NCBI GenBank assembly: GCA_027488215.1
Contig: JAIYCB010000050.1
Location: forward strand, 5,543 to 69,542
From: Comamonadaceae bacterium
GTDB lineage: Bacteria; Pseudomonadota; Gammaproteobacteria; Burkholderiales; Burkholderiaceae_C
Length of the DNA stretch: 64,000 nucleotides
Direction of reading: 5' to 3'
Positions 8,897 to 42,938 of the stretch are shown here, in pieces (position 1 is the first letter of the stretch; every line of letters begins with the position of its first letter). The position numbers and the translations under genes are program-made. The notes under the pieces are model-generated. The model made no database searches, was not told the DNA's origin, and was given only the letters and a program-made list of their open reading frames with translations.

Positions 8897-8934
8897 TCGT
8901 GAAAACCCGGGGTCCTCGGTGCCCAAACTTGATA
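8897..8934 (+). promoter_or_regulatory. Putative AraC/XylS-type operator upstream of the GATase-P450 operon
   Basis: TCGTGAAAACCC-N11-TGCC-N6-TGATA, ending 51 bp before ATG 8986; resembles the XylS-type TGCA-N6-GGNTA half site. Confidence 0.55.
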
Positions 8935-9714: not shown

Positions 9715-10976
9715 CCGTCTGGCATCCCAACGACGATGGCCACGCCGACATCTCCAGACACGACAGCTATCTGAACGGCACGCCGCACAACACCTTCAAG
9801 CGTTTGCGCGACGAAGACCCCATGGCCTGGTGCGACTGGGCTGAGGGCAAGGGCTTCTGGTCGGTCACGCGCCATGCCGATATTTTGGAGCTCAACCGCA
9901 ACCACCAGCGCCTCAGTTCTGCACAGGGCATCCGCATGGAAGACCAGTCGCACGAGGAGTACATGGCGCGGCGGACTTTTCAAGAGACCGACCCGCCCGA
10001 ACACACCCGCACCCGCATGCTGGTGGCCAAGGCCTTTTCCAAGCCCATGATGGCGCTGTACGAAGACCAGATCCGCGAGCTGTGTGTGGGCATCCTCGAT
10101 CAGGCCCTGGCGCTGGGCGAGTTTGACGCCACGCACCAGATCGCCCGCCAGCTGCCCATGCGCATGCTCGGGCGCATCGCGGGCCTGCCTGAGGAGGACC
10201 TGGATTGGCTGGTGGACAAGGGCGATGCACTCATGGCCAACACCGACAGCGACTTCACCAGCCATGTGGTCGACAAAATGGACACCGAGGCCTACCGCTT
10301 CATGCCCTTTCGCTCGCCCGCCGGGGCCGACCTGTTCGACTACGCGGCCCAGCTGATGGAACGCAAGCGCAGCGCGGGCGACACCAGCGGCGTGCTGCAC
10401 CTGATCACCCAGCCCGATGCCCAGGGCCATGTGATCAGCGACACCGAGTTCCGCAACTTCTTTTGTCTGCTGGTGGCCGCGGGCAACGACACCACACGCT
10501 ATTCGATCGCCGCCGCCTTGCATGCGCTGGCCAACCAGCCGGGGCTGATGCAGCAACTCAAGGCGGTGCAGGGCGAAGCGGCTTGGGAGGGCGTGGCCGA
10601 CGAGTTCATCCGCTGGGCTTCACCCGCCACACACTTTCGCCGCACCGCGACCGAAGACTTTGAGTACCACGGCAAACATGTCAAAGCGGGCGACAAGGTG
10701 CTGCTCTGGTTCATCTCTGGCAACCGCGACGAGCGGGCTTTTGACCGGCCGTTCACCGTTGATCTGAGCCGGGGCGTGAACCGCCACCTGGCGTTTGGGC
10801 AGGGCGGGGCGCATGCCTGCTTGGGCATGTGGCTGGCGCGGCTGGAGTTGCGCGTGTTGATGCAAGAGCTGATCAAGCGCGTCGAGCGCATCGAGCAAAC
10901 GGGCGAGCACGCCTTTTTGCGATCCAACTTTGTCTCGGGCATCAAACGTTTGCCCGTGCGCATGCACCTGATCTGA
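9711..10976 (+). CDS. Cytochrome P450
   Basis: I-helix AAGNDTT, ExxR (EFIR), heme ligand FGQGGAHACLG. Confidence 0.96.
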   Translation: MTVWHPNDDGHADISRHDSYLNGTPHNTFKRLRDEDPMAWCDWAEGKGFWSVTRHADILELNRNHQRLSSAQGIRMEDQSHEEYMARRTFQETDPPEHTRTRMLVAKAFSKPMMALYEDQIRELCVGILDQALALGEFDATHQIARQLPMRMLGRIAGLPEEDLDWLVDKGDALMANTDSDFTSHVVDKMDTEAYRFMPFRSPAGADLFDYAAQLMERKRSAGDTSGVLHLITQPDAQGHVISDTEFRNFFCLLVAAGNDTTRYSIAAALHALANQPGLMQQLKAVQGEAAWEGVADEFIRWASPATHFRRTATEDFEYHGKHVKAGDKVLLWFISGNRDERAFDRPFTVDLSRGVNRHLAFGQGGAHACLGMWLARLELRVLMQELIKRVERIEQTGEHAFLRSNFVSGIKRLPVRMHLI

Positions 10977-10987
10977 AAGGAACCACC

Positions 10988-12280
10988 ATGTCGAATGTTC
11001 AAGAACGCCTGCGGGTGCTGTTTTGTGACCACCTGGCCATTGCGCGTGGCAAATACGTCACGCTCCAACCCGGGCAGGGCGGCGGTGCCCGTTTTTGCCG
11101 GGGCACTTTTGGCGTCACTTACGAAAAAGAGCTGATCCCAGCTCCGGGCGCGATGGTCATGGAAGGCCTGCCCGACATGGAGGCCGTCTACACCCCCGAG
11201 GACATCCGCCCCGGCTGGCAGCCGTTCACCCAGGTCGCGGTGGGTGACCTCAAGGCCAACGACGGCACCCCTCTGCCCATGTGCGGGCGCAGTGCCTTGA
11301 AGCGCGCCGTGGCCGACTGGCAAGCCACGGGCTACGACCCGATGGTGGGCATTGAGCTCGAAGCCTTTGCCTTCCAGATCGAGCCCGACGGCTCTCTCAA
11401 ACCTTACGACACGCCTGCAGCCCATGTGTATTCAACCGGTCCATTCTCCGACCCCCGGGGCTTCACCGACGCCCTGTGGGAAAAAGCCACGGCCGCGGGC
11501 TTTCGCATCGACAGCATGAACACCGAATACGACGCGCCGCAGTTCGAGTTCACGCTCACCTACGACCGCGCCGTCAAGGCGGTGGACGACATTTTTTTGT
11601 TCCGTCTGCTGGCGCGTGAGGTGGCTTTTCAGCACGGCATCGTGTTGACCTTCATGCCCAAACCGATCCTCACGGTGGGCGGCAGCGGCGTGCACATCAA
11701 TTTCAGCCTGCGCGACGACCAAGGCCACAACGCGATCTCGGGCGGGCACGACGCCAGCCAGTTCAACGCCTTGACGCTGGGCTGCACCGCCGGGCTGATG
11801 CACCACCACCAGGCGCTGGCGGGTTTATTGGCTCCGTGCGCCAATTCTTACCAACGCCTGCAACCGGCCAGCCTATCGGGTTTCTGGCAAAACTGGGCGG
11901 TGGACCACCGGGGCGTCACGGTGCGCCTGTCGGCCGAAAGCGGCCCCGGCGCGCGCATCGAGCACCGCATGGGCGACGCGGCGGCCAACCCCTACACCCA
12001 CACCGCCGCCGTGCTGCAGGCCGCCCGTCTGGGCGTGGCCAACGCCTATTCACTGCAGCCCATCGAGACCGGCGATTGCCTGGAAAACAAGGACGCCACC
12101 CAAAGCGTGCCGGGCACCTTGGCGGGTGCCTTAGACGCGCTCGAAGCCGACACGGCGCTCACGCAAGCGCTGGGCGAAGGCTTGGTGGCCAACCATGTGG
12201 GCATCAAGCGCCACGAGATCGAACGCACCGCAGGCCTCGAAGGCGACGCGCTGCGCGATCACTACATCCGATTTATCTGA
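10988..12280 (+). CDS. Glutamine synthetase-like protein (putative gamma-glutamyl-amine ligase)
   Basis: GIELEAF, EYDAPQFE, TFMPKP...GSGVHINFSL, RIEHRMGDAAANPY; start MSNVQE after AAGGA RBS. Confidence 0.9.
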   Translation: MSNVQERLRVLFCDHLAIARGKYVTLQPGQGGGARFCRGTFGVTYEKELIPAPGAMVMEGLPDMEAVYTPEDIRPGWQPFTQVAVGDLKANDGTPLPMCGRSALKRAVADWQATGYDPMVGIELEAFAFQIEPDGSLKPYDTPAAHVYSTGPFSDPRGFTDALWEKATAAGFRIDSMNTEYDAPQFEFTLTYDRAVKAVDDIFLFRLLAREVAFQHGIVLTFMPKPILTVGGSGVHINFSLRDDQGHNAISGGHDASQFNALTLGCTAGLMHHHQALAGLLAPCANSYQRLQPASLSGFWQNWAVDHRGVTVRLSAESGPGARIEHRMGDAAANPYTHTAAVLQAARLGVANAYSLQPIETGDCLENKDATQSVPGTLAGALDALEADTALTQALGEGLVANHVGIKRHEIERTAGLEGDALRDHYIRFI

Positions 12281-31705: not shown

Positions 31706-31802
31706 AACAAAACCGCAGGAACCATGGCGTCTGCAAAAAGCCTGAGAGGGCACAATCAAGGCGATGGGTGCAACTGTTTTTGCACCTTCTACAAAACACC
31801 CC

Positions 31803-32549
31803 ATGAAACTGACTCGAACATCTTCGATGGCTTGGACCCTGATGGCGACGCTGCTCTTGCCTGTCGCATCCGCTCAGGCGCAAAGTGCTTCCAGCGAACC
31901 AGTCCCTCATACGGCACATGCCGCACTGCACCAAGTTCTGCATTTGAGTGCTTCGGCACAGACCGATGTGCCGCAAGACTGGTTGGTGGTCAACCTGGCC
32001 GTTCAAAAAGAGGGCCTGCAAGCCCCTGCGGTTCAAAGGCAGCTCAATGCGGTCCTTTCGTCAGCCTTGGCCTTGGCCACCCCCATGGCCCAGCCCGGGG
32101 GGGTGGAGGTGAGAACGGGCGAGATGAATGTGTCACCGCGTTATGGGCGAGACGGGAAAGTCAACGGTTGGTTTGGCTCTGCGCAACTCGTCTTGCAAGG
32201 CCGCGATGCCGAGCAAATCACAACACTCGCTGCCCGCCTTCCAGAACTAACGGTGTCACAGATCGATTGGCGCTTGAGTCCCGAACAGAAAAGTGCTGCC
32301 CAAGCGCGAATCCAGGCCGAAGCGGTGGAGCGTTTTCAAAACAAAGCGCAATCCTTGACCAGGCAGTTTGGTTTTGCAGGCTACACCCTCCGGGAGGTGC
32401 GCGTCAGTGCTCAGGAGGCCGAAGATGGGGTGGTCATGCCGCGCATGACCATGGCTCAGATGGATGCGCCTTCGCCGATGCCGGTACCTGCGGTGGCCGG
32501 CAAGTCACGCGTGGTGGTGAACGTTTCGGGCAGTATTGTGCTGCGTTGA
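31803..32549 (+). CDS. SIMPL (DUF541) domain periplasmic protein
   Basis: Signal peptide, LHLSASAQTDVPQD, EAVERFQNKA...FGFAGYTLREVRV, C-terminal VVVNVSGSIVL. Confidence 0.8.
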   Translation: MKLTRTSSMAWTLMATLLLPVASAQAQSASSEPVPHTAHAALHQVLHLSASAQTDVPQDWLVVNLAVQKEGLQAPAVQRQLNAVLSSALALATPMAQPGGVEVRTGEMNVSPRYGRDGKVNGWFGSAQLVLQGRDAEQITTLAARLPELTVSQIDWRLSPEQKSAAQARIQAEAVERFQNKAQSLTRQFGFAGYTLREVRVSAQEAEDGVVMPRMTMAQMDAPSPMPVPAVAGKSRVVVNVSGSIVLR

Positions 32550-32618
32550 AGATGCTGGGGTTCCGGCCCCAATCAGTGCATCGGAAAACAAAACGAATTG
32601 ATTGGTAAACCCAAGCAG

Positions 32619-33431
32619 TCAAGCAGCACTCATGCCTTTGTTGAACATGTAGACAGCAAGAAACACCAAGAAGAAAGAAAACACCCTTTTCAATTTCTTA
32701 ACGGGGAGTCGATGTGCAGCTCGCGCACCGAAGGGCGCCGTCAGCACGCTGCAACAGGCAATGACCAACATTCCCGGCAACCAAATATAGCCAAGTGACC
32801 AGGGTGGCAGGTTCTCCAGTTTCATACCGCTGATGACAAAGCCGGTGACATTCGCAAGTGCAATGGGAAATCCTAAAGCAGCGCTTGTGCCAATGGCGTT
32901 GTGTATGGCCACATTGCACCAGGTCATCAAAGGCACACTGACGAAAGCTCCTCCAGCGCCGACCAAACCCGACAGCAACCCGATCAGACCACCCATTCCC
33001 AACTGACCCGCGAAACCCGGCATTTGACGCGATGGCTTTGGTTTTTTATCCAAAAACATTTGAAAGGCAGAAAAAGAGACAAACAGGCCGAACAAAATGG
33101 CCAATGTGGCGCCTTTCACAGCCACAAAAATCCAGAGGCTGGCCATGGCACTTCCCAGCACAATGCCAGGTGCTAAACCTTTGACTAAGTCCCATCGCAC
33201 AGCGCCCAACTTTTGGTGGGTTCTCACGCTAGAGACCGATGTGAACAAAATGGTCGACATGGACGTGACAATGGCCATTTTGATGGACAGATCCTCAGAG
33301 ACGCCCATGTCGCTGAGTAAAAAACTCAGCACCGGAACCATCATCAAGCCACCGCCCAAACCCAACAATCCAGCCATGAAACCAACAACCGTGCCAGTCA
33401 GGGCCAGTTCTAAAAAGACTTGAGCTTCCAT
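32619..33431 (-). CDS. Sulfite exporter TauE/SafE family membrane protein
   Basis: GLLGLGGGLMMVP, GLVGAGGAFVSVP, AIGTSAA; 5 bp downstream of the CoA ligase stop. Confidence 0.88.
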   Translation of the reverse strand: MEAQVFLELALTGTVVGFMAGLLGLGGGLMMVPVLSFLLSDMGVSEDLSIKMAIVTSMSTILFTSVSSVRTHQKLGAVRWDLVKGLAPGIVLGSAMASLWIFVAVKGATLAILFGLFVSFSAFQMFLDKKPKPSRQMPGFAGQLGMGGLIGLLSGLVGAGGAFVSVPLMTWCNVAIHNAIGTSAALGFPIALANVTGFVISGMKLENLPPWSLGYIWLPGMLVIACCSVLTAPFGARAAHRLPVKKLKRVFSFFLVFLAVYMFNKGMSAA

Positions 33432-33436
33432 GAGGC

Positions 33437-34954
33437 TTAGACCAACCCAAGTTTTTGTGCCATGCCAATGCGTTGTAACTTACCGGTAGCCCCTTTGGGA
33501 ATTTCTTCCATCAGCAGAACCTTGCGCGGCACTTTGAAATCGGCCAAACGTGTTGCCGTGTAGTCGCGAAGTTCTTTTTCAGTGGCAGTCATTCCCTCGC
33601 GCAGGACCACGGCAGCGCCAACCTCTTCGCCCAATTTTTCATGGGGGATGCCAAAGCAAACGACCTGTGCCACTGCAGGATGGTCCATCAAGACTTCATC
33701 GACTTCGCGTGGGCTGATTTTTTCACCGCCACGGTTGATGATTTCTTTGAGCCTGCCTGTGATGCTGACATAGCCCTGTGCATCCAAGATCCCTTGGTCA
33801 CCCGTTCTGAACCATCCATTGGTGAAGGCTTCTGCATTGGCTTTATCGTTGTTTTCATAGCCAGGCGTGACGTTGCTGCCGCGGATCACAATTTCGCCTG
33901 TGCTCCCTACGGGCAATAAATCACCTTCTGCACTCATGATGGCAATCTCGGGGCCTGCGGCCAAGCCCACGGTGCCCGGTTTTCTTTGGCCCGGCGGCAG
34001 CGGATTGCAAGCCATTTGGTGAGCTGCTTCGGTCATGCCATAAGCTTCGATCACCGGGGCATTGAAGGTGTCTTCGAGCTCAGCCAAAACCTGCGGCGGT
34101 AACGAAGAGGATGACGAACGAATGAATCGAAGTGGCACCCTTGCTATGACTTCTTTGTTGTTGGCCGATCTGGACAAAATAGCCTGGTGCATGGTGGGCA
34201 CCGCGGTATACCAAGTCGGCTTGACTTCGTCCATTTGGCTGAAGAATTTCAACGCATTGAAGCCACTGGTGCAATAGACTTGCCCGCCTTGAGACAGTGG
34301 CGCCAAGATGCCGGCAATCAAGCCATGAATGTGAAAGAGGGGCATGACATTCAAGCCTCGGTCGGAGCTGCTAAAGCGCGTGCTGTGTGCAATGTTTTGC
34401 GCTGAGGCAGTCACGTTGCGGTGTGTCAAGGGAACAATTTTGGGCCGCGAAGTGGTGCCAGAGGTGTGAAGTACCAAAGCCACGTCGTCAGTCTCGGCTT
34501 GTCCAGGATGCTGCGCGGCTTTTGGCGTCAGGCCGTTCATGTTCAGTGTGAAAGAGCCAGCGCCGATGGAGGGCGTGGGTTCGAGTTCAATGACAGCGAT
34601 GCCCATTTTGGCGGCTACTGCCACGGCAGGACTGCTCGAACCTTTTTCAACCACCAAGGCTTTGGCGTTCAAGTCATTCAGATAAAACTCGAATTCATCA
34701 GCACGATAACTGGGATTCAAGGGCGCTGACGTGCAGCAGCAGGCCACAGTCACAAAACTGGCCGCCATTTCTGCGCTGTTGGGCAAAACAAGCGCAACAC
34801 GATCGTTTCTACCAATTCCGACTTGGTTGAACTTTGTACGTACGTATTCATTCAGTTGACGTAATCCTGAATAGCTCAAAGGCGCACTGTTTGCAGCCGT
34901 CAGACAAACAGACTCAGAATGACCAAAAGCCAAAAGATCAATTAGGGTTTTCAT
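33437..34954 (-). CDS. Acyl-CoA ligase of the AAE3/PCS60 (oxalate-CoA ligase) type
   Basis: LHTSGTTSRPKIVPL, MPLFHIHGL, TWYTAVPTMHQ, LRFIRSSSSSL, EAYGMTEAAHQMACNPLP, INRGGEKISP; closely parallels plant AAE3 as recalled. Confidence 0.78.
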   Translation of the reverse strand: MKTLIDLLAFGHSESVCLTAANSAPLSYSGLRQLNEYVRTKFNQVGIGRNDRVALVLPNSAEMAASFVTVACCCTSAPLNPSYRADEFEFYLNDLNAKALVVEKGSSSPAVAVAAKMGIAVIELEPTPSIGAGSFTLNMNGLTPKAAQHPGQAETDDVALVLHTSGTTSRPKIVPLTHRNVTASAQNIAHSTRFSSSDRGLNVMPLFHIHGLIAGILAPLSQGGQVYCTSGFNALKFFSQMDEVKPTWYTAVPTMHQAILSRSANNKEVIARVPLRFIRSSSSSLPPQVLAELEDTFNAPVIEAYGMTEAAHQMACNPLPPGQRKPGTVGLAAGPEIAIMSAEGDLLPVGSTGEIVIRGSNVTPGYENNDKANAEAFTNGWFRTGDQGILDAQGYVSITGRLKEIINRGGEKISPREVDEVLMDHPAVAQVVCFGIPHEKLGEEVGAAVVLREGMTATEKELRDYTATRLADFKVPRKVLLMEEIPKGATGKLQRIGMAQKLGLV

Positions 34955-35059
34955 GAATGAAAGATGAAAAAGTTTGGTTAAGGGGAATTTTTTCTCGACA
35001 ACATACAGAACATTCTAGTACGATACTCACGAGTTAATTTAATTACCAAGGAGTTTACT

Positions 35060-36070
35060 GTGAAAAATCGTCTCTCGATGTTTATCAAAACAGCTGCCTT
35101 GGTGGCCAGCAGCTCGTTGTGTTTCAACGCTAACGCCCAATCCAAATGGGAACCTACAAAAAATGTTGAGTTCATCGTGCCGGCCGGCACTGGAGGGGGA
35201 GCTGATCAGATGGCGCGGTTTCTCCAGGGGGTGATTACCAAGCACAAACTCATGGCTCAACCCTTGGTGGTGGTCAACAAATCGGGCGGTGCAGGGGCAG
35301 AAGGATTTTTGGATGCCAAAGGCGCTCGTCCTGACGGTCACAAAATCATCATCACGCTGTCAAATTTATTCACAACACCCTTAGCAACAGGTGTGCCCTT
35401 CAATTGGAAAGATTTGACCCCTGTGGCCATGCTGGCGCTTGATGAATTTGTGCTTTGGGTCAATGCCGAGTCACCCTACAAATCGGTTGGCGACTTGACC
35501 AAGGCGATGAAACAAGCTGAATCTGGCAAATTCAAAATGGGTGGAACCGGCTCCAAGCAGGAAGATCAGATCATCACTGTGGCCATTGAAAAAGCCACAG
35601 ACAAAAAAATGACCTACATCCCTTTCAAAGGCGGTGGTGATGTGGCGGTTCAATTGGTGGGCAAACATGTAGATGCCACGGTGAACAACCCGATTGAAGC
35701 GGTGGCCCATTGGAAGGGCGGCACTTTGAGAGCGTTATGTGTATTTGATTCCCAGGTCATGCCTTATCCCAAAAAAATCACCCCCACACAGTCGTGGAAG
35801 GACATTCCCACCTGCAAATCGCAAGGGCTTGATGTGGAGTATTTGATGTTGCGCGGCATTTTCATGCCGCCCAAAGCGACGCCAGCGCAAGTGGCTTACT
35901 TCACCGATGTTTTCCAAAAAGTACGTCAACTCCCTGAGTGGAAAGAATTCATGGAAACGGGCGCTTTCAAGGACACCTACATGAAGGGCCAGGAATTTCA
36001 AGATTGGTTGCTCAAAGCAGAGGTGGAGCATTTCCGTCTGATGCGTGAAGCCGGCTTCTTGGCCAAATAA
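35060..36070 (+). CDS. tctC: Tripartite tricarboxylate transporter substrate-binding protein
   Basis: Signal peptide, IVPAGTGGGAD, VNKSGGAGAEG, IPFKGGG; GTG start after AAGGAG. Confidence 0.9.
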   Translation: MKNRLSMFIKTAALVASSSLCFNANAQSKWEPTKNVEFIVPAGTGGGADQMARFLQGVITKHKLMAQPLVVVNKSGGAGAEGFLDAKGARPDGHKIIITLSNLFTTPLATGVPFNWKDLTPVAMLALDEFVLWVNAESPYKSVGDLTKAMKQAESGKFKMGGTGSKQEDQIITVAIEKATDKKMTYIPFKGGGDVAVQLVGKHVDATVNNPIEAVAHWKGGTLRALCVFDSQVMPYPKKITPTQSWKDIPTCKSQGLDVEYLMLRGIFMPPKATPAQVAYFTDVFQKVRQLPEWKEFMETGAFKDTYMKGQEFQDWLLKAEVEHFRLMREAGFLAK

Positions 36071-36090
36071 AACTTCAGAAGGACCTCATT

Positions 36091-36588
36091 ATGAAATCGG
36101 GTACACACCTGCAAATGCGGTGGATGGAGTTATTGGTGGCTGCTTGCTTTCTGGGTGTGAGCTTACTGGTCATCACAGACAGTATTCGGGTTGGCAAAGC
36201 TTGGGGAGCCGATGGTCCTGAGCCCGGCTACTTTCCGTTCTACATCGGTTGCCTTTTGTTGGGCGGCGCAGCTTGGATCATTTTGCAAACCTTGTGGGCT
36301 TGGAAGCAAGACGATGGGAAAGAAGTGTTTGCCGAAGGGCATGAGTTCAATTTGATGATGTTGATGCTCATCCCTTCAGCGGTTTTTGTGGCAGCCATCT
36401 TTGTGCTGGGAATTTATCTGGCCTCAATGACTTTCGTTGCAGCCTTTATGGTCTGGCAGGGTAAATACAGTTACGTCAAAGCGATCTCAGTCGGTGCGGG
36501 CATCAGTGCGGTCTTGTTTGCCTTGTTTGAAATTTGGTTCAAGTTGCCATTGCCAAAAGGCTTCATTGAAACTTGGTTGGGCTATTGA
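36091..36588 (+). CDS. tctB: Tripartite tricarboxylate transporter small subunit
   Basis: GPEPGYFP motif, four TM segments, LPLPKG C-terminus. Confidence 0.88.
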   Translation: MKSGTHLQMRWMELLVAACFLGVSLLVITDSIRVGKAWGADGPEPGYFPFYIGCLLLGGAAWIILQTLWAWKQDDGKEVFAEGHEFNLMMLMLIPSAVFVAAIFVLGIYLASMTFVAAFMVWQGKYSYVKAISVGAGISAVLFALFEIWFKLPLPKGFIETWLGY

Positions 36589-36590
36589 TC

Positions 36591-38081
36591 ATGGATGAAC
36601 TCAACAACCTGTTTCAGGGCTTTGCTGTTGCGCTGACACTGCCCAACATTGGCTTCATGCTGATTGGTATTTTTTTGGGTGTGCTCATTGGGGTCTTGCC
36701 TGGTTTGGGCGGTGCCAATGGCGTAGCCATTTTGCTGCCTCTCACCTTTGGCATGTCGCCCACATCGGCCATCATCATGCTGTCTTGTATCTATTGGGGG
36801 GCATTGTTTGGCGGCGCCATTACTTCCATTTTGTTCAATATTCCAGGCGAGCCTTGGTCGGTGGCGACTACCTTCGACGGTTACCCCATGGCGCAAAAGG
36901 GCAAGGCCGCGCAGGCCCTGACCGCGGCCTTCACATCGTCATTCGTAGGCGCCTTTGTGGCTGTGCTCATGGTCACATTTTTGGCCCCGCTGGTGGCTAA
37001 ATTTGCGCTCAACTTTGGTCCACCTGAGTTCTTTGCAGTTCAGTTGCTCACCTTTGCAAGTTTCATTGGCATGAGCAAAGAACCTCCCGTTAAAACCTTG
37101 CTGGCCATGATGTTGGGTTTTGCATTGGCAGCTGTGGGTTTGGACAGTGTGACGGGCACATTGCGCATGACCTATGGTCAAGAAAGTTTGCTCAAAGGCT
37201 TTGACTTTTTGATCGCCGTCATTGGCCTCTTTGGCATTGGCGAAATTTTGCTGACCATGGAGGAGGGCCTTGCGTTCAAAGGGCAGAAGGGGCGCATCAG
37301 TCTCAAGGATGTTCTCGAAACCTGGAAAGAGCTGCCCAAGTACTGGGCCACGTCCTTGCGTGCATGTTTGATTGGTTGCTGGATGGGCGTCACACCCGGA
37401 GGCGCAACACCTGCGTCGTTCATGAGTTATGGCACAGCCAAGCGAATTTCAAAGCATCCTGAAAATTTTGGCAAAGGTGCCATTGAGGGGGTGATTGCAC
37501 CTGAAACTGCCGCCCATGCCGCGGGTACCAGCGCCTTGTTACCTATGCTCACGCTGGGTATTCCTGGCTCACCCACAGCAGCTGTTTTGCTGGGCGGTTT
37601 GTTGATTTGGGGTTTGCAACCAGGCCCCTTGTTGTTCACTGAGCAAAAAGATTTTGTCTGGGGTCTGATTGCCTCAATGTACTTGGGCAACATCGTGGGC
37701 TTGATTGTCGTCTTGACCACCGTACCTTGGTGGGCGGCCATCTTGAGAATTCCGTTCTCCATCATTGCACCAGTGATCGTGGTGATTTGTGCGGTGGGTG
37801 CCTACACGGTTCACAACAGCATGCTGGATGTGGTCTTGATGCTGGTCTTTGGCTTGATGGGCTATGCCTTCAAAAAGCTCAAATACCCGTTGGCACCCTT
37901 GGTCTTGGCGCTGGTGCTGGGTGACATGGCTGAAACCAGCTTTAGGCAGTCTATGCTGATTTCCAAGGGTAGTTTGGAGATTTTTGTGAGCACACCCTTG
38001 GCTGGCTCCATCACGGGCTTGGCCCTCATCATGCTTTTGTGGCCAGTTTTTGGCCACTTGAAAAAGCTCAATCGAGACTGA
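36591..38081 (+). CDS. tctA: Tripartite tricarboxylate transporter large permease
   Basis: GVLPGLGG, FNIPGEP..VATTFDGYPM, GVIAPETAAHA, LGIPGSPT. Confidence 0.93.
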   Translation: MDELNNLFQGFAVALTLPNIGFMLIGIFLGVLIGVLPGLGGANGVAILLPLTFGMSPTSAIIMLSCIYWGALFGGAITSILFNIPGEPWSVATTFDGYPMAQKGKAAQALTAAFTSSFVGAFVAVLMVTFLAPLVAKFALNFGPPEFFAVQLLTFASFIGMSKEPPVKTLLAMMLGFALAAVGLDSVTGTLRMTYGQESLLKGFDFLIAVIGLFGIGEILLTMEEGLAFKGQKGRISLKDVLETWKELPKYWATSLRACLIGCWMGVTPGGATPASFMSYGTAKRISKHPENFGKGAIEGVIAPETAAHAAGTSALLPMLTLGIPGSPTAAVLLGGLLIWGLQPGPLLFTEQKDFVWGLIASMYLGNIVGLIVVLTTVPWWAAILRIPFSIIAPVIVVICAVGAYTVHNSMLDVVLMLVFGLMGYAFKKLKYPLAPLVLALVLGDMAETSFRQSMLISKGSLEIFVSTPLAGSITGLALIMLLWPVFGHLKKLNRD

Positions 38082-39072
38082 GGCCTTTGCCTTTGGACAA
38101 CACACTCTGCTCGAGCAAGCGCGTCAGGGCGTAAACCGAGTCGAGTGTGGGTGTGGGCCTGTCGCAGATTCTGCCCAGCTCAATCACGCTGCCCAACAGC
38201 GCCTCCAACTCCAGGGCCTTGCCGTTCTCAATGTCTTGCAACATGGACGTTTTGTGGGCGCCTACAGCTTGTGCGCCTGCAATCCGCTTATCGATGCTGA
38301 TTTTGAATTGAACGCCCAGTTTTTCGCCGACAGTTTGAGCTTCTGCCATCATGCGAGCGGCCAAATTGCGCGTGAGATCAAAATTGCAAATGTCTTCCAA
38401 CGTGGCGTGCGTCAGGGCGGACACCGGGTTGAAGGTGAGGTTGCCCCAAAGCTTGACCCACAGCTCACTGCGAATGTCCGTGGACACGGGCGTCTTGAAT
38501 CCTGCGGCAATCATGGCCTGTGCCAATGCCGTCACACGTTCAGATTTTTCGCCACTGGGTTCGCCCAAAGTAAAGCGATTGCCTTCAATGAGTTTGACCA
38601 CACCCGGTGCGACCAATTCAGCGGCGGGGTAGACCACAGCGCCGATCACCCGCTCTGGGCCAATGTGTTGCCATTGCGCACCACCTGGATCAATGGAAGT
38701 CAATTGGCGGTTTTGATACTCACCGACCAAGTTATAAAAGTACCACCAAGGAACGCCATTTTGCAGTGTGACAACAGCCGTTTTGTCATGACACAGCCGC
38801 CCAATTTGTTCGGCAACCGGGCTGACCTGGTGCGACTTCATTGTTAAAAAAACATAGTCGTGCGGCGTTGCTTCATCGATCGTGCAGGCCTTGACGTGCG
38901 GGGCGTGCAAAGATGTGCCGTCTTCTAAAGTGAGGGTCATGCCATTTGCTTGAATGGCTTTGAGATTTTCCCCACGGGCAATGAAAGTCACGTTGCAGCC
39001 CGACAAGGCCAACTTCACACCAAGGTAGCCCCCAATGGCGCCCGCGCCCACAATGGCAATGTTCAAACTCAT
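38068..39072 (-). CDS. PanE/ApbA-like reductase (candidate oxalyl-CoA reductase)
   Basis: GAGAIGG Rossmann motif, LQNGVPWWYF, WVKLWGNLTFNP, HKTSMLQD; overlaps tctA end by 14 bp. Confidence 0.8.
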   Translation of the reverse strand: MSLNIAIVGAGAIGGYLGVKLALSGCNVTFIARGENLKAIQANGMTLTLEDGTSLHAPHVKACTIDEATPHDYVFLTMKSHQVSPVAEQIGRLCHDKTAVVTLQNGVPWWYFYNLVGEYQNRQLTSIDPGGAQWQHIGPERVIGAVVYPAAELVAPGVVKLIEGNRFTLGEPSGEKSERVTALAQAMIAAGFKTPVSTDIRSELWVKLWGNLTFNPVSALTHATLEDICNFDLTRNLAARMMAEAQTVGEKLGVQFKISIDKRIAGAQAVGAHKTSMLQDIENGKALELEALLGSVIELGRICDRPTPTLDSVYALTRLLEQSVLSKGKGLSLD

Positions 39073-39842
39073 ATTGACGCTTTCATGGTGTTAGAAAGAG
39101 TGCCAATGCCCTCTACGGACACTTCTACAACGGCATCATTTTGCCAAGGCATTGCACCGAGGGAGGTGCCGCAGGAAATGATATCGCCAGGCTCCAAAGT
39201 CATGCCTCTGGAGAGTTTGGCGACCAACTCCTGGGGTGAAAAAAACATGTCACTCACCGGGTAATTTTGGCGCTCTCGCCCGTTGACTTTGGCGGTCACG
39301 ATCGATTGGGTGCAATCCAAGTCGGTTTCGATCCAAGGACCGAAAGGGGTAAAGCCATCGAAATTTTTGGCCCGGGTCCATTGCTCAAAGCTGGTGTCGC
39401 TTCTCAGCAGTTCAATGGCTGTGACGTCGTTCACACAGGTGTATCCAAAAATATGCTGTGCAGCTTCTTCGATCGGTATGTCCCGTCCGCGTCGACCAAT
39501 GACGATGCCCAATTCCGCTTCGTAAACCACCCGTCCTACATCGTGTGGGGGTCGAATCACAGCTTGAAGGTGGTGTGAATACGAATTGGGCGATTTGAGA
39601 AAGTACAGCGGTTCAGAAGGTGCACTCCAACCATTCTTTTCTGCAGCCGTTTTGAAATTGTTCCAAAGAGCCAAAACTTTGGAGGGATGGCAGGGCGCCA
39701 AAATCTCAACGTCCGACACACTCAGTGTATCGCCCGTGGGTTGCGGATCATCAAAAAGAAGACCTTGATGAACATGGATGGTTTCACCCACCAATTGACC
39801 CATGCCAATATGGCCTTGGTGTGAATAGCGCAGCCACCTCAT
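39069..39842 (-). CDS. Fumarylacetoacetate hydrolase family protein
   Basis: YFLKSPNS, YEAELGIVIG, GYTCVNDVT, RAKNFDGFTPFGP, PGDIISCGT; start MRWLRY at 39842. Confidence 0.9.
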   Translation of the reverse strand: MRWLRYSHQGHIGMGQLVGETIHVHQGLLFDDPQPTGDTLSVSDVEILAPCHPSKVLALWNNFKTAAEKNGWSAPSEPLYFLKSPNSYSHHLQAVIRPPHDVGRVVYEAELGIVIGRRGRDIPIEEAAQHIFGYTCVNDVTAIELLRSDTSFEQWTRAKNFDGFTPFGPWIETDLDCTQSIVTAKVNGRERQNYPVSDMFFSPQELVAKLSRGMTLEPGDIISCGTSLGAMPWQNDAVVEVSVEGIGTLSNTMKASI

Positions 39843-39879
39843 GCAATTGTCCCCATTGAATTCAAATGGTGTTAAAGGT

Positions 39880-40050
39880 GTCTGCGAGTGCCACCGGACC
39901 GGCATCCTGAACCGGGGTTCAGGTGGGCGAGGGCAGACTGGCGTTGGGTTCATCTGACGCGAGACGATCACGCTCACCAGCCAATGTACCAAGCCCGGGC
40001 TCTAAGAGCATTGGTTCAAGGAAATATAAAGCCCGGCATGCACCGCAGAC
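39880..40050 (-). ncRNA. ssrS: 6S RNA
   Basis: Ends pair (GTCTGCGGTGC / GCACTCGCAGAC); contains ATATTTCCTTGAACC and CCTGAACC-cc-GGTTCAGG; lies just downstream of zapA as is typical. Confidence 0.9.
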
Positions 40051-40110
40051 CAAGCCATTGTAGGCGTTAACAGCTTTGAACAGCAGTCGCCAGCATCACT
40101 GGCAGGCGCT

Positions 40111-40434
40111 TCAAAGCAGTTGGCCGTCTTGCTCAATCACTCGATCAAGGCGTTCAAGTAACTGCTTGAGCCGAGCCTGTGCATCGGGCGTTACCTCATC
40201 GGCAGCACTGACACTGGTGGGTGCAGGAGGGGGTTCGACTTGTTCAAAGGCCAAGTTCAGCGCAGCGAGCACGGCAATACGGTCGCGCGCCTTGATCTTG
40301 CCCGCGTCGCGGATTTTGCACATGGCTTCGTCCACCTTGCGCACGGCACCGAGCAATCGCTCTTCGCCGCCCTCGGGGCAGCCGAGGATGTAGCTTTGGC
40401 CCATGATCTGAACGTCGATTTGTCGGTTGCTCAT
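40111..40434 (-). CDS. zapA: Cell division protein ZapA
   Basis: IDVQIMGQSYILGCP, DRIAVLAALNLA. Confidence 0.93.
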   Translation of the reverse strand: MSNRQIDVQIMGQSYILGCPEGGEERLLGAVRKVDEAMCKIRDAGKIKARDRIAVLAALNLAFEQVEPPPAPTSVSAADEVTPDAQARLKQLLERLDRVIEQDGQLL

Positions 40435-40679: not shown

Positions 40680-40768
40680 GAAAAAAGAAGGTCTCCATTG
40701 TAGGGCGTGCGGTACCAAGTCTACTGATTTTGTTTGTTTGCCGACAGCTTTGAGCCTAAAATATGCCG

Positions 40769-40989
40769 TGTTGGTGCTCGCGATGCCGGTTCACGGCGCG
40801 CAGTTCAACGGGAAGCAGGAGGGGGGAGTCACCACGACCGTCCTAACCTGCGCTGCCCCCGCAACGGTAAGCAGACGGGTTCTCAATCCAACGAGAGCCC
40901 CGCTTTCACCTCAAACCACTGGCCGCCCTGAAACAGACAGCCGGGAAGGTGGTGAAGGTCGCCTCTGCCAGCCCGGATACCGGCCAACA
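40769..40989 (+). promoter_or_regulatory. Cobalamin (AdoCbl) riboswitch
   Basis: TGTTGGTGC...AACGGGAA...CTGCCCCCGCAACGGT...CCACTG...GGGAAGG...AGCCCGGATACCGGCCAACA core elements in the right order upstream of btuB. Confidence 0.93.
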
Positions 40990-41069
40990 AGGTGACCTGT
41001 TGCAAGACAGGTTGTAAAGCCCATGCACTGTCGGGGAAGGCGGTGAGGGTGTTTGACTTGTCTGTTTTT

Positions 41070-42938
41070 ATGAAAAACCGTACTTTCCGTGCGCGTCGTT
41101 TTGCGTTGGCTCTTTCCAGCCCTGCGTTTTCCTTGTTGTCCTTGGCCAGCGGCGCTGCGCTGGCGCAAAGCGCGGGGTCTGAAATCGTGGTCACCGCCAA
41201 CCGCACCGAGCAAATTCTGACCGATGTGTTGCCTCACACCACGGTTCTTGGCCGCGATGCCATCGAGCGATCCCAGGTGATGGATTTGCCTACCTTGCTG
41301 TCTCGCGAGGCGGGTTTCCAATTCACCCAAACTGGGGGACGGGGCGGGCAGGCCACGGCCTTCTTGCGTGGTTCGGCTTCCATGCAAGTGCTGGTGCTGG
41401 TCGACGGTGTGCCCGTCACCAAACAAGACACCACGGGTGCCGTGAGCCTGGAGCACATCATGCTCGACCAGGTGGATCGGATTGAAATCGTGCGCGGCAA
41501 CGTTTCAGCCATTCATGGCAGCGGTGCGGTGGGTGGGGTGATCCAGGTGTTCACGCGGCAAGGCCAGGGTCAGCCCATGGTTTATGCCAGCGCCGAGAGA
41601 GGTTCGCAGGGCAGCCAGCGCTGGCATGCAGGCACGCAGGGTGCGGTCGGACCATTGGCTTATACGGTGTCTGTGGGGCGTCTTCACACCGACGGCATCA
41701 ACGCGGCCAACCTTTCGCAAACCCTCAATGCCAACCCCGATGCGGACGGTTACCGCAATGACAACCACGCGCTGAACCTCTCCTACCAACTCAGTCCCGA
41801 GCACAAGCTGGGTCTGCGCTCGACCCACTTCAAGGGCCGCTTTGACTACGACGTAACGGGTAGTTTTTCTGCGCCGACCGACTTGCACCAGGGTCGCACC
41901 CAACTTGACAGCCACAGCCTGTATTGGGCGGGTCGGCTAGGGCCGCAGTGGTCCAGCCGTTTGAATTATTCCGACGCCAAGGAGCGCAATGACACTGCTA
42001 CCGTGGGCGGTTATTCATTCACAACACGGGCCCAAACTCGCACCCGCATGGTGTCGTGGACGCACCAGTGGGACCTTCCTTCGATGGTGTTGACGGCCGG
42101 CTTGGACCATCAGACACAAGGGATCGACACGGCCTTCAACGGGGCATCTGACCTGTTGCGCGAACGCCATGCCCATGCGATCTACGGCGGCATGGTCTAC
42201 AAGCGTGCGGCGCAGAACCTGCAGTTCAACCTGCGGCGCGACCATGTGGAAGACCTTTCTGCCAAGGATTCGGTGTATTTGGGTTACGGCTATGACCTGA
42301 ACGCCGAATGGAAATTGATCGCCAGCCACGCGACGGCTTTTAACGTGCCGCCCTTGGGCTATTTGTTTGATCCCTATTACGGTAATCCCAATTTGCGCCC
42401 CGAAACCGCCAACACCCAAGAGGCGGGTGTGCAATGGGCGCAAGGGCCACACCGCTTGCGTTCAACTTGGTTTTCCACGCTCACCAAAGACCTGCTTTTG
42501 TATGACATGGGAAGTTCCCAGTTCAGCAACGTCAGTCGCGTCAAAAACCGTGGTTTGGAAACCAGCTACAGCGGCCGCTTTCACATGACCGATTTGCGCG
42601 CCAGCTTGTCCTTGCAAGACCCGGTGAATGAGGCCACAGGCCAGCAACTGGTGCGCCGGGCCAAGACCCTGGCCTCGGTGTCGGTCTCGCAATCGCTGGG
42701 CTTGTTGTCATTGGGTGGCAGTGTGCGTTACACCAGCGCACGCCCCGATATCGAAGGCAAGCCTGGCCTGCCCAGCAACACCTTGTTAGATTTGACCGCC
42801 CGCTACAGTTTGGGTCGCGACTGGACACTGTATGGCCGCGTGGAAAACGCCACCAACAGCCGCTATCAGAGCGCGTATGGCTATAACCAGTTACCGCGCA
42901 CCACCACGCTGGGGCTGAGCTGGAAAATGAAATACTGA
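41070..42938 (+). CDS. btuB: TonB-dependent cobalamin receptor
   Basis: TonB box EIVVTANR, plug VLVLVDGVP/IEIVRG, GNPNLRPE, RVENATNSRY; downstream of B12 riboswitch. Confidence 0.88.
   Translation: MKNRTFRARRFALALSSPAFSLLSLASGAALAQSAGSEIVVTANRTEQILTDVLPHTTVLGRDAIERSQVMDLPTLLSREAGFQFTQTGGRGGQATAFLRGSASMQVLVLVDGVPVTKQDTTGAVSLEHIMLDQVDRIEIVRGNVSAIHGSGAVGGVIQVFTRQGQGQPMVYASAERGSQGSQRWHAGTQGAVGPLAYTVSVGRLHTDGINAANLSQTLNANPDADGYRNDNHALNLSYQLSPEHKLGLRSTHFKGRFDYDVTGSFSAPTDLHQGRTQLDSHSLYWAGRLGPQWSSRLNYSDAKERNDTATVGGYSFTTRAQTRTRMVSWTHQWDLPSMVLTAGLDHQTQGIDTAFNGASDLLRERHAHAIYGGMVYKRAAQNLQFNLRRDHVEDLSAKDSVYLGYGYDLNAEWKLIASHATAFNVPPLGYLFDPYYGNPNLRPETANTQEAGVQWAQGPHRLRSTWFSTLTKDLLLYDMGSSQFSNVSRVKNRGLETSYSGRFHMTDLRASLSLQDPVNEATGQQLVRRAKTLASVSVSQSLGLLSLGGSVRYTSARPDIEGKPGLPSNTLLDLTARYSLGRDWTLYGRVENATNSRYQSAYGYNQLPRTTTLGLSWKMKY

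What the first reader, a model, noticed from the sequence alone, without database searches (positions are those of the whole stretch)
32619..39842. Candidate oxalate activation and assimilation module without oxc/frc
Seen: an AAE3/PCS60-like ligase (TSRPK, FHIHG, FIRSSS, AAHQM motifs), a PanE-like reductase of the QNGVPWWYF subtype, an FAH-family enzyme, TctCBA and a TauE-type exporter packed together. Spot G+C is low (31/60 at 35101-35160, 26/60 at 38701-38760). Established: AAE3/PCS60 are oxalate-CoA ligases, and a PanE paralogue acts as oxalyl-CoA reductase in Methylobacterium extorquens. Inference: ATP-dependent oxalate -> oxalyl-CoA -> glyoxylate assimilation or detoxification, bypassing the classical Frc/Oxc/OxlT route, none of which lies in this window.
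Basis: partly seen in the sequence, partly recalled or inferred. Interest (0 to 1): 0.75.

Follow-up and report, generated by a model that had tools for sequence, protein, structure and literature searches.

The report
Oxalate-to-glyoxylate gene cluster without decarboxylase
A lake betaproteobacterium carries genes that most likely import oxalate, activate it with ATP and reduce it to glyoxylate; these enzymes are already known from Methylobacterium, but here they stand alone without the usual oxalate marker genes, with a different transporter and an unexplained extra enzyme.

Summary
All seven genes, the quoted motifs and the two G+C spot counts are there.

- The ligase scores 432-434 bits against solved plant oxalyl-CoA synthetases, against 208 bits for the next family. 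It keeps the three oxalate-contacting residues.
- The reductase is 60% identical to a Methylobacterium gene bracketed exactly by the published primers used to clone M. extorquens panE2, the assayed oxalyl-CoA reductase.
- Ligase and reductase are neighbours in about 74 of 80 loci from several phyla.
- Where the TctCBA transporter is missing, an OxlT-type oxalate/formate antiporter often sits in its place, never both.
- The genome (90% complete) has no oxc, frc or gcl above cut-off, but it has malate synthase G as a glyoxylate sink.

The route itself is not new. Oxs plus PanE2 are known and assayed in M. extorquens, and this scan has reported the pair before in at least 11 other genomes.

What is particular here:
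- the module stands alone;
- the likely oxalate importer is a TctCBA system;
- an FAH-family gene of unknown role is translationally coupled to panE2 and tracks it across Burkholderiales;
- the block is low in G+C and absent from a same-genus genome.

Verdict: a variant instance of a known pathway, of moderate interest.

The parts
33437..34954 (-). Oxalate--CoA ligase (AMP-forming; Oxs / AAE3 / Pcs60 type), 505 aa
   Evidence: Pfam AMP-binding plus AMP-binding_C. Best solved relatives are oxalyl-CoA synthetases 6qjz and 5ie0 (434 and 432 bits) and yeast Pcs60 8aff (391), against 208 bits for the next family. The AtAAE3 pocket residues V215-H216, C288-S289, A313-M314, H319, K500 correspond to I209-H210, S281-S282, G306-M307, H312, K492 (PMC8905533). 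69% identical to the Methylobacterium Leaf123 ligase that lies next to panE2.
38068..39072 (-). PanE2-type NADPH oxalyl-CoA reductase (ApbA/PanE fold), 334 aa
   Evidence: Pfam ApbA plus ApbA_C; NCBIfam NF005089 445 bits, cut-off 223. 60% identical to the Leaf123 gene delimited exactly by the published panE2 primers. Sits in the ligase-linked clade of the tree. It is the only PanE-family gene found in the genome, which also lacks panB, panC and panD.
39069..39842 (-). FAH-family enzyme (Rv2993c-like N domain plus FAA hydrolase domain), 257 aa; its stop overlaps the panE2 start (ATGA)
   Evidence: Pfam; start and overlap. The nearest solved relatives are HpaG/HpcE-type isomerase/decarboxylases and the oxaloacetate decarboxylases Cg1458 (4dbf) and 8sky. 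The orthologue is adjacent to or clustered with PanE2 in 24 of 44 hits, and co-occurs with it in 36 of 42 genomes of the order sample.
35060..36070 (+). TctC periplasmic binding protein of a tripartite tricarboxylate-type transporter; proposed oxalate receptor
   Evidence: Pfam TctC. Orthologues 61-71% identical lie in ligase clusters of other genera, while paralogues in the own genome are 30% identical or less. The same orthologue lies inside an frc-oxc operon in G173 (L132).
36091..36588 (+). TctB small membrane subunit
   Evidence: Pfam TctB 69 bits.
36573..38081 (+). TctA large membrane subunit; its 3' end overlaps the convergent panE2 by 14 bases
   Evidence: Pfam TctA 516 bits; 72-83% identical orthologues in other ligase clusters.
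32619..33431 (-). TauE/SafE-family anion permease, 5 bases downstream of the ligase; whether it belongs to the module is uncertain
   Evidence: Pfam TauE 171.6 bits. Lies within 8 kb of the ligase in 10 of 40 loci with full flanks. It shares the low G+C of the block (0.512), but it is retained at the same site in the same-genus genome G380, which lacks the rest of the block.
34955..35059 (.). A+T-rich divergent intergenic region between the ligase and tctC; presumed promoters
   Evidence: Sequence. Weak sigma-70-like matches on both strands, no more than shuffles give. No regulator gene lies in the block.

Best explanation
The block encodes a stand-alone oxalate uptake and conversion route made of three transcription units.

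1. TctCBA (+ strand) most likely takes up oxalate.
2. The ligase (- strand, followed by TauE) uses ATP and CoA to make oxalyl-CoA.
3. The FAH-panE2 pair (- strand, ATGA-coupled, just downstream of the 6S RNA gene) includes the PanE2-type reductase, which reduces oxalyl-CoA with NADPH to glyoxylate and free CoA.
4. Malate synthase G, encoded elsewhere in the genome, condenses glyoxylate with acetyl-CoA.

The genome has no oxalyl-CoA decarboxylase or formyl-CoA transferase and no glyoxylate carboligase. Oxalate therefore gives little or no net energy: about two ATP equivalents and one NADPH are spent per molecule. The route best fits co-assimilation or disposal of oxalate by a lake heterotroph, not growth on oxalate as the only substrate.

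What is shown: the identity of the folds, membership of the two enzyme clades by sequence, the conserved gene linkage, and the lack of detectable oxc, frc and gcl. What is inferred: the substrates of the ligase, the reductase and TctC in this organism, the direction of flux, and the physiological role. The role of the FAH enzyme is unknown. My best guesses are a beta-keto-acid (oxaloacetate) decarboxylase that helps to oxidise glyoxylate-derived malate, or a helper of glyoxylate release.
For: Ligase:
- OCS clade by score, 432-434 bits against 208 for the next family.
- The oxalate-contacting Ser, His and Lys are kept and are invariant in 11 bacterial homologues (PMC8905533).
- JGI already names homologues oxalate--CoA ligase.
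- M. extorquens OXS has been assayed, with Km for oxalate 9 uM (PMC7154664).

Reductase:
- The panE2 primers of PMC8411744 Table S2 match, with no mismatch, both ends of the gene directly upstream of the ligase in Methylobacterium sp. Leaf123. The forward primer also matches M. komagatae and M. bullatum.
- The window protein is 60% identical to that gene and shares its clade, SH-aLRT 94.
- PanE2 activity has been measured in vitro (PMC8411744, PMC9485241).
- Deleting the C. necator homologue apbA2 slows growth on oxalate (bioRxiv 10.1101/2020.05.08.083683).

Linkage:
- Ligase and PanE2 lie together in about 74 of 80 loci from Beta-, Alpha- and Gammaproteobacteria, Planctomycetota, Latescibacterota and Poribacteria, with a median gap of 28 bases.
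- In an unbiased order sample, PanE2-type genes lie next to the ligase in 12 cases and next to true frc with or without oxc in 10.

Transporter:
- Of 40 loci with full flanks, 15 have the TctCBA system, 8 have an MFS and none has both.
- The MFS is a TIGR04259 oxalate/formate antiporter at equivalog level, 619-622 bits against a cut-off of 335.
- The same TctCBA orthologue lies within frc-tctCBA-FAH-panE2-oxc-frc in G173.

Genome:
- oxc best hit 244 bits against a cut-off of 739; frc 252 against 504; gcl 333 against 711.
- Malate synthase G scores 1128 bits against a cut-off of 989.
- No panB, panC or panD was found, so the reductase has no pantothenate pathway to serve.
Against: The genome is only 90.5% complete, so oxc, frc, gcl, panBC or a second panE could lie in the missing part.

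The three units are separately transcribed and no regulator ties them together.

NCBIfam files the reductase under a subfamily named 2-dehydropantoate 2-reductase. In other Burkholderiales, members of the same broad clade sit in a housekeeping neighbourhood (miaB-phoH-ybeY-corC-lnt, ubiH, dsbC), so ketopantoate reductase activity in the clade is not excluded.

I could not read Schneider et al. 2012. That OXS is the gene adjacent to panE2 rests on three things: the single AAE3-like hit in the M. bullatum record, my memory of that paper's abstract, and earlier notes of this scan.

No tripartite tricarboxylate-type binding protein is known to me to bind oxalate.
Confidence: 0.75

Rival explanations
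1. The enzymes are the same but the purpose differs. The module removes oxalate that enters or forms in the cell, as plants use AAE3. Oxalate is a chelator and an inhibitor of enzymes that bind enolpyruvate-like intermediates. Carbon gain would be incidental.
For: There is no energy-yielding branch, as oxc and frc were not found. There is no glycerate pathway. The route costs ATP and NADPH. No dedicated regulator is present.
Against: A high-affinity uptake system (TctCBA, or OxlT-type in other loci) is built into the module. That argues for deliberate import rather than disposal. Malate synthase G is present to use the product.
Confidence: 0.15
2. TctCBA imports not oxalate but a larger oxalo-type or 2,4-dioxo acid. 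The FAH-family enzyme cleaves it and releases oxalate inside the cell, which the ligase and reductase then salvage.
For: FAH-fold enzymes cleave or decarboxylate 1,3-dicarbonyl acids (established knowledge; relatives). The FAH gene is tightly coupled to panE2 and follows it across genomes. Known substrates of this transporter family are mostly larger acids (molecule names).
Against: In other loci the transporter slot is filled by an equivalog-level oxalate/formate antiporter, which points to oxalate itself. Many ligase-PanE2 pairs have no FAH gene nearby (25 of 40 loci). FAH-PanE2 pairs also occur without any transporter.
Confidence: 0.07
3. The grouping has no common function. The reductase is the cell's ketopantoate reductase, the ligase activates some other short acid, and the transporter and FAH enzyme serve unrelated pathways.
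For: NCBIfam names the subfamily 2-dehydropantoate 2-reductase. It is the only PanE-family gene in the assembly. The genes form three separate transcription units.
Against: The ligase-reductase pairing recurs in about 74 of 80 loci across phyla. No panB, panC or panD is present. The ligase keeps the oxalate pocket. The orthologue in Methylobacterium is the assayed PanE2.
Confidence: 0.03

Closest known systems
Oxs (OXS) plus PanE2 of Methylobacterium/Methylorubrum extorquens AM1 (Schneider et al. 2012, cited in PMC7154664 and PMC8411744; enzymes assayed in PMC7154664, PMC8411744, PMC9485241)
   Same: The same two enzyme clades: the ligase is 69% and the reductase 60% identical to the Leaf123 orthologues. 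The genes are adjacent in Methylobacterium. The proposed chemistry is the same: oxalate -> oxalyl-CoA -> glyoxylate.
   Different: Methylobacterium also has oxc and two frc genes for energy (M. bullatum), and it assimilates glyoxylate through the serine cycle (from memory of the 2012 abstract). Its cluster carries an OxlT-type MFS, not TctCBA (L094). In the window the module stands alone, the ligase and reductase lie in separate units 3 kb apart, and the only sink found is malate synthase G.
Plant and yeast oxalyl-CoA synthetase route (AtAAE3, LsOCS, Pcs60/FAT2)
   Same: The ligase fold, 432-434 bits to the solved plant enzymes, and the same oxalate-contacting Ser, His and Lys.
   Different: In plants oxalyl-CoA goes on to oxalyl-CoA decarboxylase, formyl-CoA and CO2 (PMC8004701 title and abstract; PMC8905533). 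Here it would be reduced to glyoxylate. No eukaryotic partner genes are involved.
Classical bacterial oxalotrophy: OxlT, Frc, Oxc
   Same: Oxalyl-CoA is the central intermediate. PanE2-type reductases, the FAH gene and even the same TctCBA orthologue occur inside frc-oxc operons of other Burkholderiales (G173, G007, G224).
   Different: Activation is by an ATP-dependent ligase instead of a CoA transferase, and there is no decarboxylation. In a sample of 251 genomes of the order, 23 hold the ligase and 43 hold oxc, with no genome holding both.
Engineered yeast route oxaloacetase -> FAT2 (oxalate-CoA ligase) -> PanE2 -> glyoxylate reductase (PMC10127448)
   Same: The same ligase-plus-PanE2 logic for turning oxalate into glyoxylate.
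   Different: It is synthetic and assembled from three organisms. The window shows the natural, transporter-linked version.

Membership tests
Oxalate--CoA ligase (EC 6.2.1.8; AAE3 / Pcs60 / OXS) | ANL-superfamily architecture: AMP-binding domain plus C-terminal domain | tested here: met
   PF00501 225 bits and PF13193 68 bits.
Oxalate--CoA ligase (EC 6.2.1.8; AAE3 / Pcs60 / OXS) | Closer to characterised oxalyl-CoA synthetases than to any other acyl-CoA ligase family | tested here: met
   6qjz 434, 5ie0 432 and 8aff 391 bits, against FadD13 208 and malonyl-CoA synthetase 200.
Oxalate--CoA ligase (EC 6.2.1.8; AAE3 / Pcs60 / OXS) | Oxalate-contacting residues Ser289, His319 and Lys500 of AtAAE3; Ser and His are conserved only among oxalyl-CoA synthetases (PMC8905533) | tested here: met
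   They align with S282, H312 and K492, which are invariant in 11 bacterial homologues.
Oxalate--CoA ligase (EC 6.2.1.8; AAE3 / Pcs60 / OXS) | Kinetic preference for oxalate | not testable with these tools
   Needs an enzyme assay. The M. extorquens OXS has Km 9 uM for oxalate (PMC7154664).
PanE2-type oxalyl-CoA reductase (EC 1.2.1.17) | ApbA/PanE two-domain fold | tested here: met
   PF02558 100 bits and PF08546 100 bits.
PanE2-type oxalyl-CoA reductase (EC 1.2.1.17) | Same clade as the assayed M. extorquens PanE2 | tested here: met
   Published panE2 primers match L045 at 8925 and 9915-9932 with no mismatch. The window protein is 60% identical to that gene. Both lie in the ligase-linked clade, SH-aLRT 94. 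The M. extorquens sequence itself was not available.
PanE2-type oxalyl-CoA reductase (EC 1.2.1.17) | Genomic linkage to enzymes that form oxalyl-CoA | tested here: met
   Next to the ligase in about 74 of 80 loci. Relatives lie next to true frc and oxc.
PanE2-type oxalyl-CoA reductase (EC 1.2.1.17) | NADPH-dependent reduction of oxalyl-CoA to glyoxylate | not testable with these tools
   Needs an enzyme assay.
Ketopantoate reductase PanE (EC 1.1.1.169) | Match to a curated PanE model | tested here: inconclusive
   NF005089 (a subfamily, not an equivalog) scores 445 bits against a cut-off of 223, and TIGR00745 scores 189 against 141. These models also cover the PanE2 clade. E. coli PanE gives only 37 bits.
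Ketopantoate reductase PanE (EC 1.1.1.169) | A pantothenate pathway (panB, panC) in the same genome for the enzyme to serve | tested here: not met
   No panB (TIGR00222), panC (TIGR00018) or panD was found by HMM or tblastn. The genome is 90.5% complete.
Classical Frc/Oxc oxalate degradation | [quoted passage not shown] | tested here: not met
   TIGR03254 best hit 244 bits against 739; TIGR03253 best hit 252 against 504.
Tripartite tricarboxylate-type transporter | All three components TctC, TctB and TctA in one unit | tested here: met
   PF03401, PF07331 and PF01970 on consecutive + strand genes.
Fumarylacetoacetate hydrolase (FAH) superfamily | FAA_hydrolase catalytic domain | tested here: met
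   PF01557 182 bits plus Rv2993c-like N domain. No NCBIfam equivalog reaches its cut-off, so the reaction is unassigned.

The most novel reading that the evidence does not exclude
Two components would be new biochemistry. (a) This TctCBA is the first tripartite tricarboxylate-type importer for oxalate, a C2 dicarboxylate. (b) The FAH-family enzyme that is translationally coupled to panE2, and that follows it through ligase-type and frc/oxc-type clusters alike, is an undescribed third enzyme of oxalyl-CoA/glyoxylate metabolism. It might be a lyase that frees glyoxylate from its CoA hemithioacetal, or an oxaloacetate decarboxylase that closes a malate cycle. Together they would define an oxc/frc-independent oxalate sink in lake bacterioplankton that marker-gene surveys miss.
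Probability: 0.35. Interest if true: 0.6.

Novelty: new variant of a known kind. Interest (0 to 1): 0.4.

Why it matters
Environmental surveys of oxalate turnover count oxc, frc, oxdC and oxlT (PMC10192776), and the authors of a review admit that this underestimates oxalotrophy (PMC13409138).

In a sample of 251 Burkholderiales genomes, 23 carried the ligase and 43 carried oxc, and no genome carried both. The ligase-PanE2 route therefore marks a separate set of likely oxalate consumers, including lake bacteria.

Databases label the reductase as a vitamin B5 gene and the ligase as a generic or fatty-acid CoA ligase, so the pathway is invisible in routine annotation.

The work gives two concrete leads for bench tests: an oxalate-binding TctC and the FAH partner of PanE2.

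Tried and rejected
- Schneider et al. 2012 could not be read by DOI or PMC id. I linked PanE2 to the clade through the primer sequences in another paper's supplement instead.
- The supplement of PMC7154664, which should hold the OXS primers, is not held. PMC8411744's supplement has no oxs entry.
- My first ORF picker (longest ORF wins) chose antisense ORFs in high-G+C loci. I replaced it with a GC3-weighted picker.
- My first Frc reference was an antisense ORF. I corrected it, and only the corrected results are used.
- PLSDB records for C. metallidurans and M. bullatum carry no annotation, so I searched them directly.
- I considered whether the reductase is simply the housekeeping PanE. I rejected this for this genome because panB, panC and panD are not found. 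I did not reject it for clade members that sit beside miaB/ubiH/dsbC.
- The ORF 31724-32608 reads as nonsense. The real gene there is a DUF541/SIMPL protein in another frame, unrelated to the finding.
- The promoter and terminator scans gave nothing beyond shuffles.

Full report
**What is there**

The stretch 32619-39842 holds seven genes in three transcription units.
- Minus strand: an AMP-forming ligase (33437-34954), followed 5 bases later by a TauE/SafE permease (32619-33431).
- Plus strand, divergent across a 105-base A+T-rich spacer: tctC (35060-36070), tctB (36091-36588) and tctA (36573-38081).
- Minus strand, convergent with tctA: an FAH-family gene (39069-39842) whose TGA stop overlaps the ATG of an ApbA/PanE-family reductase (38068-39072).

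The genes have 0.49-0.545 G+C, against 0.591 for the genome.

Directly upstream of the FAH gene lie a 6S RNA (39875-40054; Rfam 46.5 bits against a threshold of 46.4) and zapA. This is the usual zapA-ssrS arrangement.

**The ligase**

Against all solved structures, the three best matches are oxalyl-CoA synthetases:
- grass pea 6qjz, 434 bits;
- Arabidopsis AAE3 5ie0, 432 bits;
- yeast Pcs60 8aff, 391 bits.

The next family, FadD13, scores 208 bits.

PMC8905533 lists the oxalate pocket of AtAAE3 as V215-H216, C288-S289, A313-M314, H319 and K500. S289, H319 and K500 touch oxalate, and S289 and H319 are conserved only in this enzyme class. In the HMMER alignment these positions correspond to I209-H210, S281-S282, G306-M307, H312 and K492. 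S282, H312 and K492 are invariant in 11 bacterial homologues.

JGI already names many homologues oxalate--CoA ligase. A bacterial member, OXS of M. extorquens, has been assayed with Km 9 uM for oxalate (PMC7154664).

**The reductase**

It passes the NCBIfam subfamily NF005089, named 2-dehydropantoate 2-reductase. That name does not settle the function.

PanE2 of M. extorquens is an assayed NADP-dependent oxalyl-CoA reductase (PMC8411744, PMC9485241). Deleting the C. necator homologue apbA2, which lies near frc-oxc, slows growth on oxalate (bioRxiv 10.1101/2020.05.08.083683).

I could not obtain the PanE2 sequence. However, Table S2 of PMC8411744 gives the primers used to clone the gene.
- Their gene-specific parts match Methylobacterium sp. 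Leaf123 (L045) with no mismatch at 8925 and 9915-9932. These positions are the two ends of the PanE-like gene that sits directly upstream of the ligase at 10001-11512.
- The forward primer also matches the corresponding start in M. komagatae and M. bullatum.

The window's reductase is 60% identical to that gene, and the ligases are 69% identical. The Leaf123 protein is 53% identical to the frc-linked homologue of C. metallidurans CH34. That is close to the 51% reported between PanE2 and ApbA2.

**Conserved linkage**

A scan of one genome per species returned 80 loci encoding the ligase. A PanE-like gene lies beside it in about 74 of them. They span Beta-, Alpha- and Gammaproteobacteria, an Isosphaeraceae planctomycete, Latescibacterota and Poribacteria. 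The median gap is 28 bases.

Among the 40 loci with at least 5 kb on both sides:
- 15 carry the same TctCBA system;
- 8 carry an MFS transporter;
- none carries both;
- 15 carry the FAH gene;
- 10 carry TauE;
- none carries oxc or frc.

The MFS is an oxalate/formate antiporter at equivalog level, TIGR04259 at 619-622 bits against a cut-off of 335. This is independent evidence that oxalate is the substrate, and that TctCBA fills the importer slot.

The same TctCBA orthologue (TctC 62%, TctA 66% identical) also lies inside a classical operon, frc-tctCBA-FAH-panE2-oxc-frc, in genome G173.

**Survey of the order**

In 251 genomes sampled evenly from the order:
- the ligase (E <= 1e-120) is in 23;
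- oxc (E <= 1e-150) is in 43;
- no genome has both.

About four shared genomes would be expected if the two were independent. Because related genomes are not independent, this is only suggestive.

PanE-like proteins at 45% identity or more occur in about 57 genomes. Of the 56 copies I extracted:
- 12 lie next to the ligase;
- 10 lie next to true frc, three of them also next to oxc;
- 34 lie next to neither.

Twelve of those 34 sit in a conserved housekeeping neighbourhood: miaB, phoH, ybeY, corC and lnt on one side, ubiH-like and dsbC on the other.

In the tree the ligase-linked copies form one clade of 68 rows (SH-aLRT 94). It holds the window, M. bullatum and one oxc-linked copy. The frc/oxc-linked copies are spread over all three main clades. 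Oxalate contexts therefore bracket the whole group, but I cannot exclude ketopantoate reductase activity in some members.

**The rest of this genome**

The assembly has 3.07 Mb in 53 contigs and is 90.5% complete.
- It has no oxc (best 244 bits against 739), no frc (252 against 504) and no glyoxylate carboligase (333 against 711).
- It has no malate synthase A, but it has malate synthase G (1128 bits against 989).
- The window's reductase is the only PanE-family gene found.
- panB, panC and panD are not found by tblastn or HMM.

A pantothenate role therefore has no pathway to belong to, subject to the missing 10% of the genome.

**The FAH gene**

Its nearest solved relatives are HpaG/HpcE-type isomerase/decarboxylases, followed by the oxaloacetate decarboxylases Cg1458 (4dbf) and 8sky. 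No curated equivalog fits.

Its orthologue (42-55% identity) occurs in 42 of the 250 other sampled genomes. Of 44 hits, 24 lie adjacent to or clustered with PanE2. Of the 42 genomes, 36 also hold a PanE2-type gene, where about 10 would be expected by chance.

The gene is therefore a real partner of PanE2, in ligase-type and frc/oxc-type clusters alike. Its reaction is unknown. My guesses are not tested.

**Origin**

The closest loci (89-93% ligase identity; L013-L015, lake MAGs) share the whole arrangement.

A genome of the same genus, G380, has dsbD2, then the TauE homologue, then the 6S RNA gene directly. It lacks 33437-39842. Within the family, 20 of 150 genera sampled hold the ligase, none above 69% identity.

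With the low G+C, this points to gain by transfer, or to loss in G380. I cannot say which.

TauE shares the low G+C but stays behind in G380, so its membership of the module is open.

**Comparison with what is known, and verdict**

The chemistry and both enzymes are known from M. extorquens. This scan has already reported the ligase-PanE2 pair in at least 11 other genomes. Those earlier follow-ups reached the same reading as mine.

The differences here are:
- the module stands alone;
- it has a TctCBA importer;
- it includes the coupled FAH gene;
- ligase and reductase are split into separate units.

I rate it a variant of a known pathway, with moderate interest. Its main value is as a marker for oxalate use that oxc/frc surveys miss, and as a source of two testable leads.

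Noticed in passing
window 39875-40434 (-): zapA (40111-40434) is followed by a 6S RNA gene (39875-40054; Rfam 46.5 bits against a threshold of 46.4). The FAH-panE2 pair starts 32 bases downstream, in the place that ygfA holds in E. coli (from memory). Read-through from the 6S RNA gene is possible.
   Followed up: partly
window 33437-39842, against G380:C10:496551-497419: A genome of the same genus lacks the ligase, tctCBA, panE2 and FAH genes. It keeps the TauE homologue between dsbD2 and the 6S RNA gene, so the block is a presence/absence polymorphism at a fixed site.
   Followed up: partly
window 31724-32608: The longest ORF here translates to Arg/Gly/Cys-rich nonsense. The real gene is 31764-32549(+), a DUF541/SIMPL protein (Pfam 88 bits). 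It is absent from G380 and from the close relative L013.
   Followed up: partly
whole genome G000: No panB, panC or panD and no second PanE-family gene were found in the 90.5%-complete assembly. The organism may depend on outside pantothenate.
   Followed up: partly
window 40755-42938 (+): A cobalamin riboswitch (76.6 bits) lies directly before a BtuB-type TonB-dependent receptor. This is ordinary.
   Followed up: no
L093 (C. metallidurans CH34 chromid), L120, L125-L127: A third cluster type: FAH-panE2 lies with an OxlT-type MFS, a true frc and a ThDP enzyme only 26% identical to Oxc. That enzyme's best NCBIfam hits are an acetolactate synthase model and 2-hydroxyacyl-CoA lyase, both below cut-off.
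   Followed up: partly
G173:C1:1349316-1350074 and G007:C4:22661-23341: In the two genomes where panE2 lies right next to oxc, the FAH match contains one in-frame stop (TAG and TGA respectively). This could be decay or a match that runs past the gene's end. It was not examined.
   Followed up: no
L013, L016, L070: The record titles name Akkermansia muciniphila, Bordetella parapertussis and Chitinophaga pinensis. The loci look betaproteobacterial, with 93%, 81% and 66% ligase identity and the same synteny, so the MAG labels look wrong.
   Followed up: no
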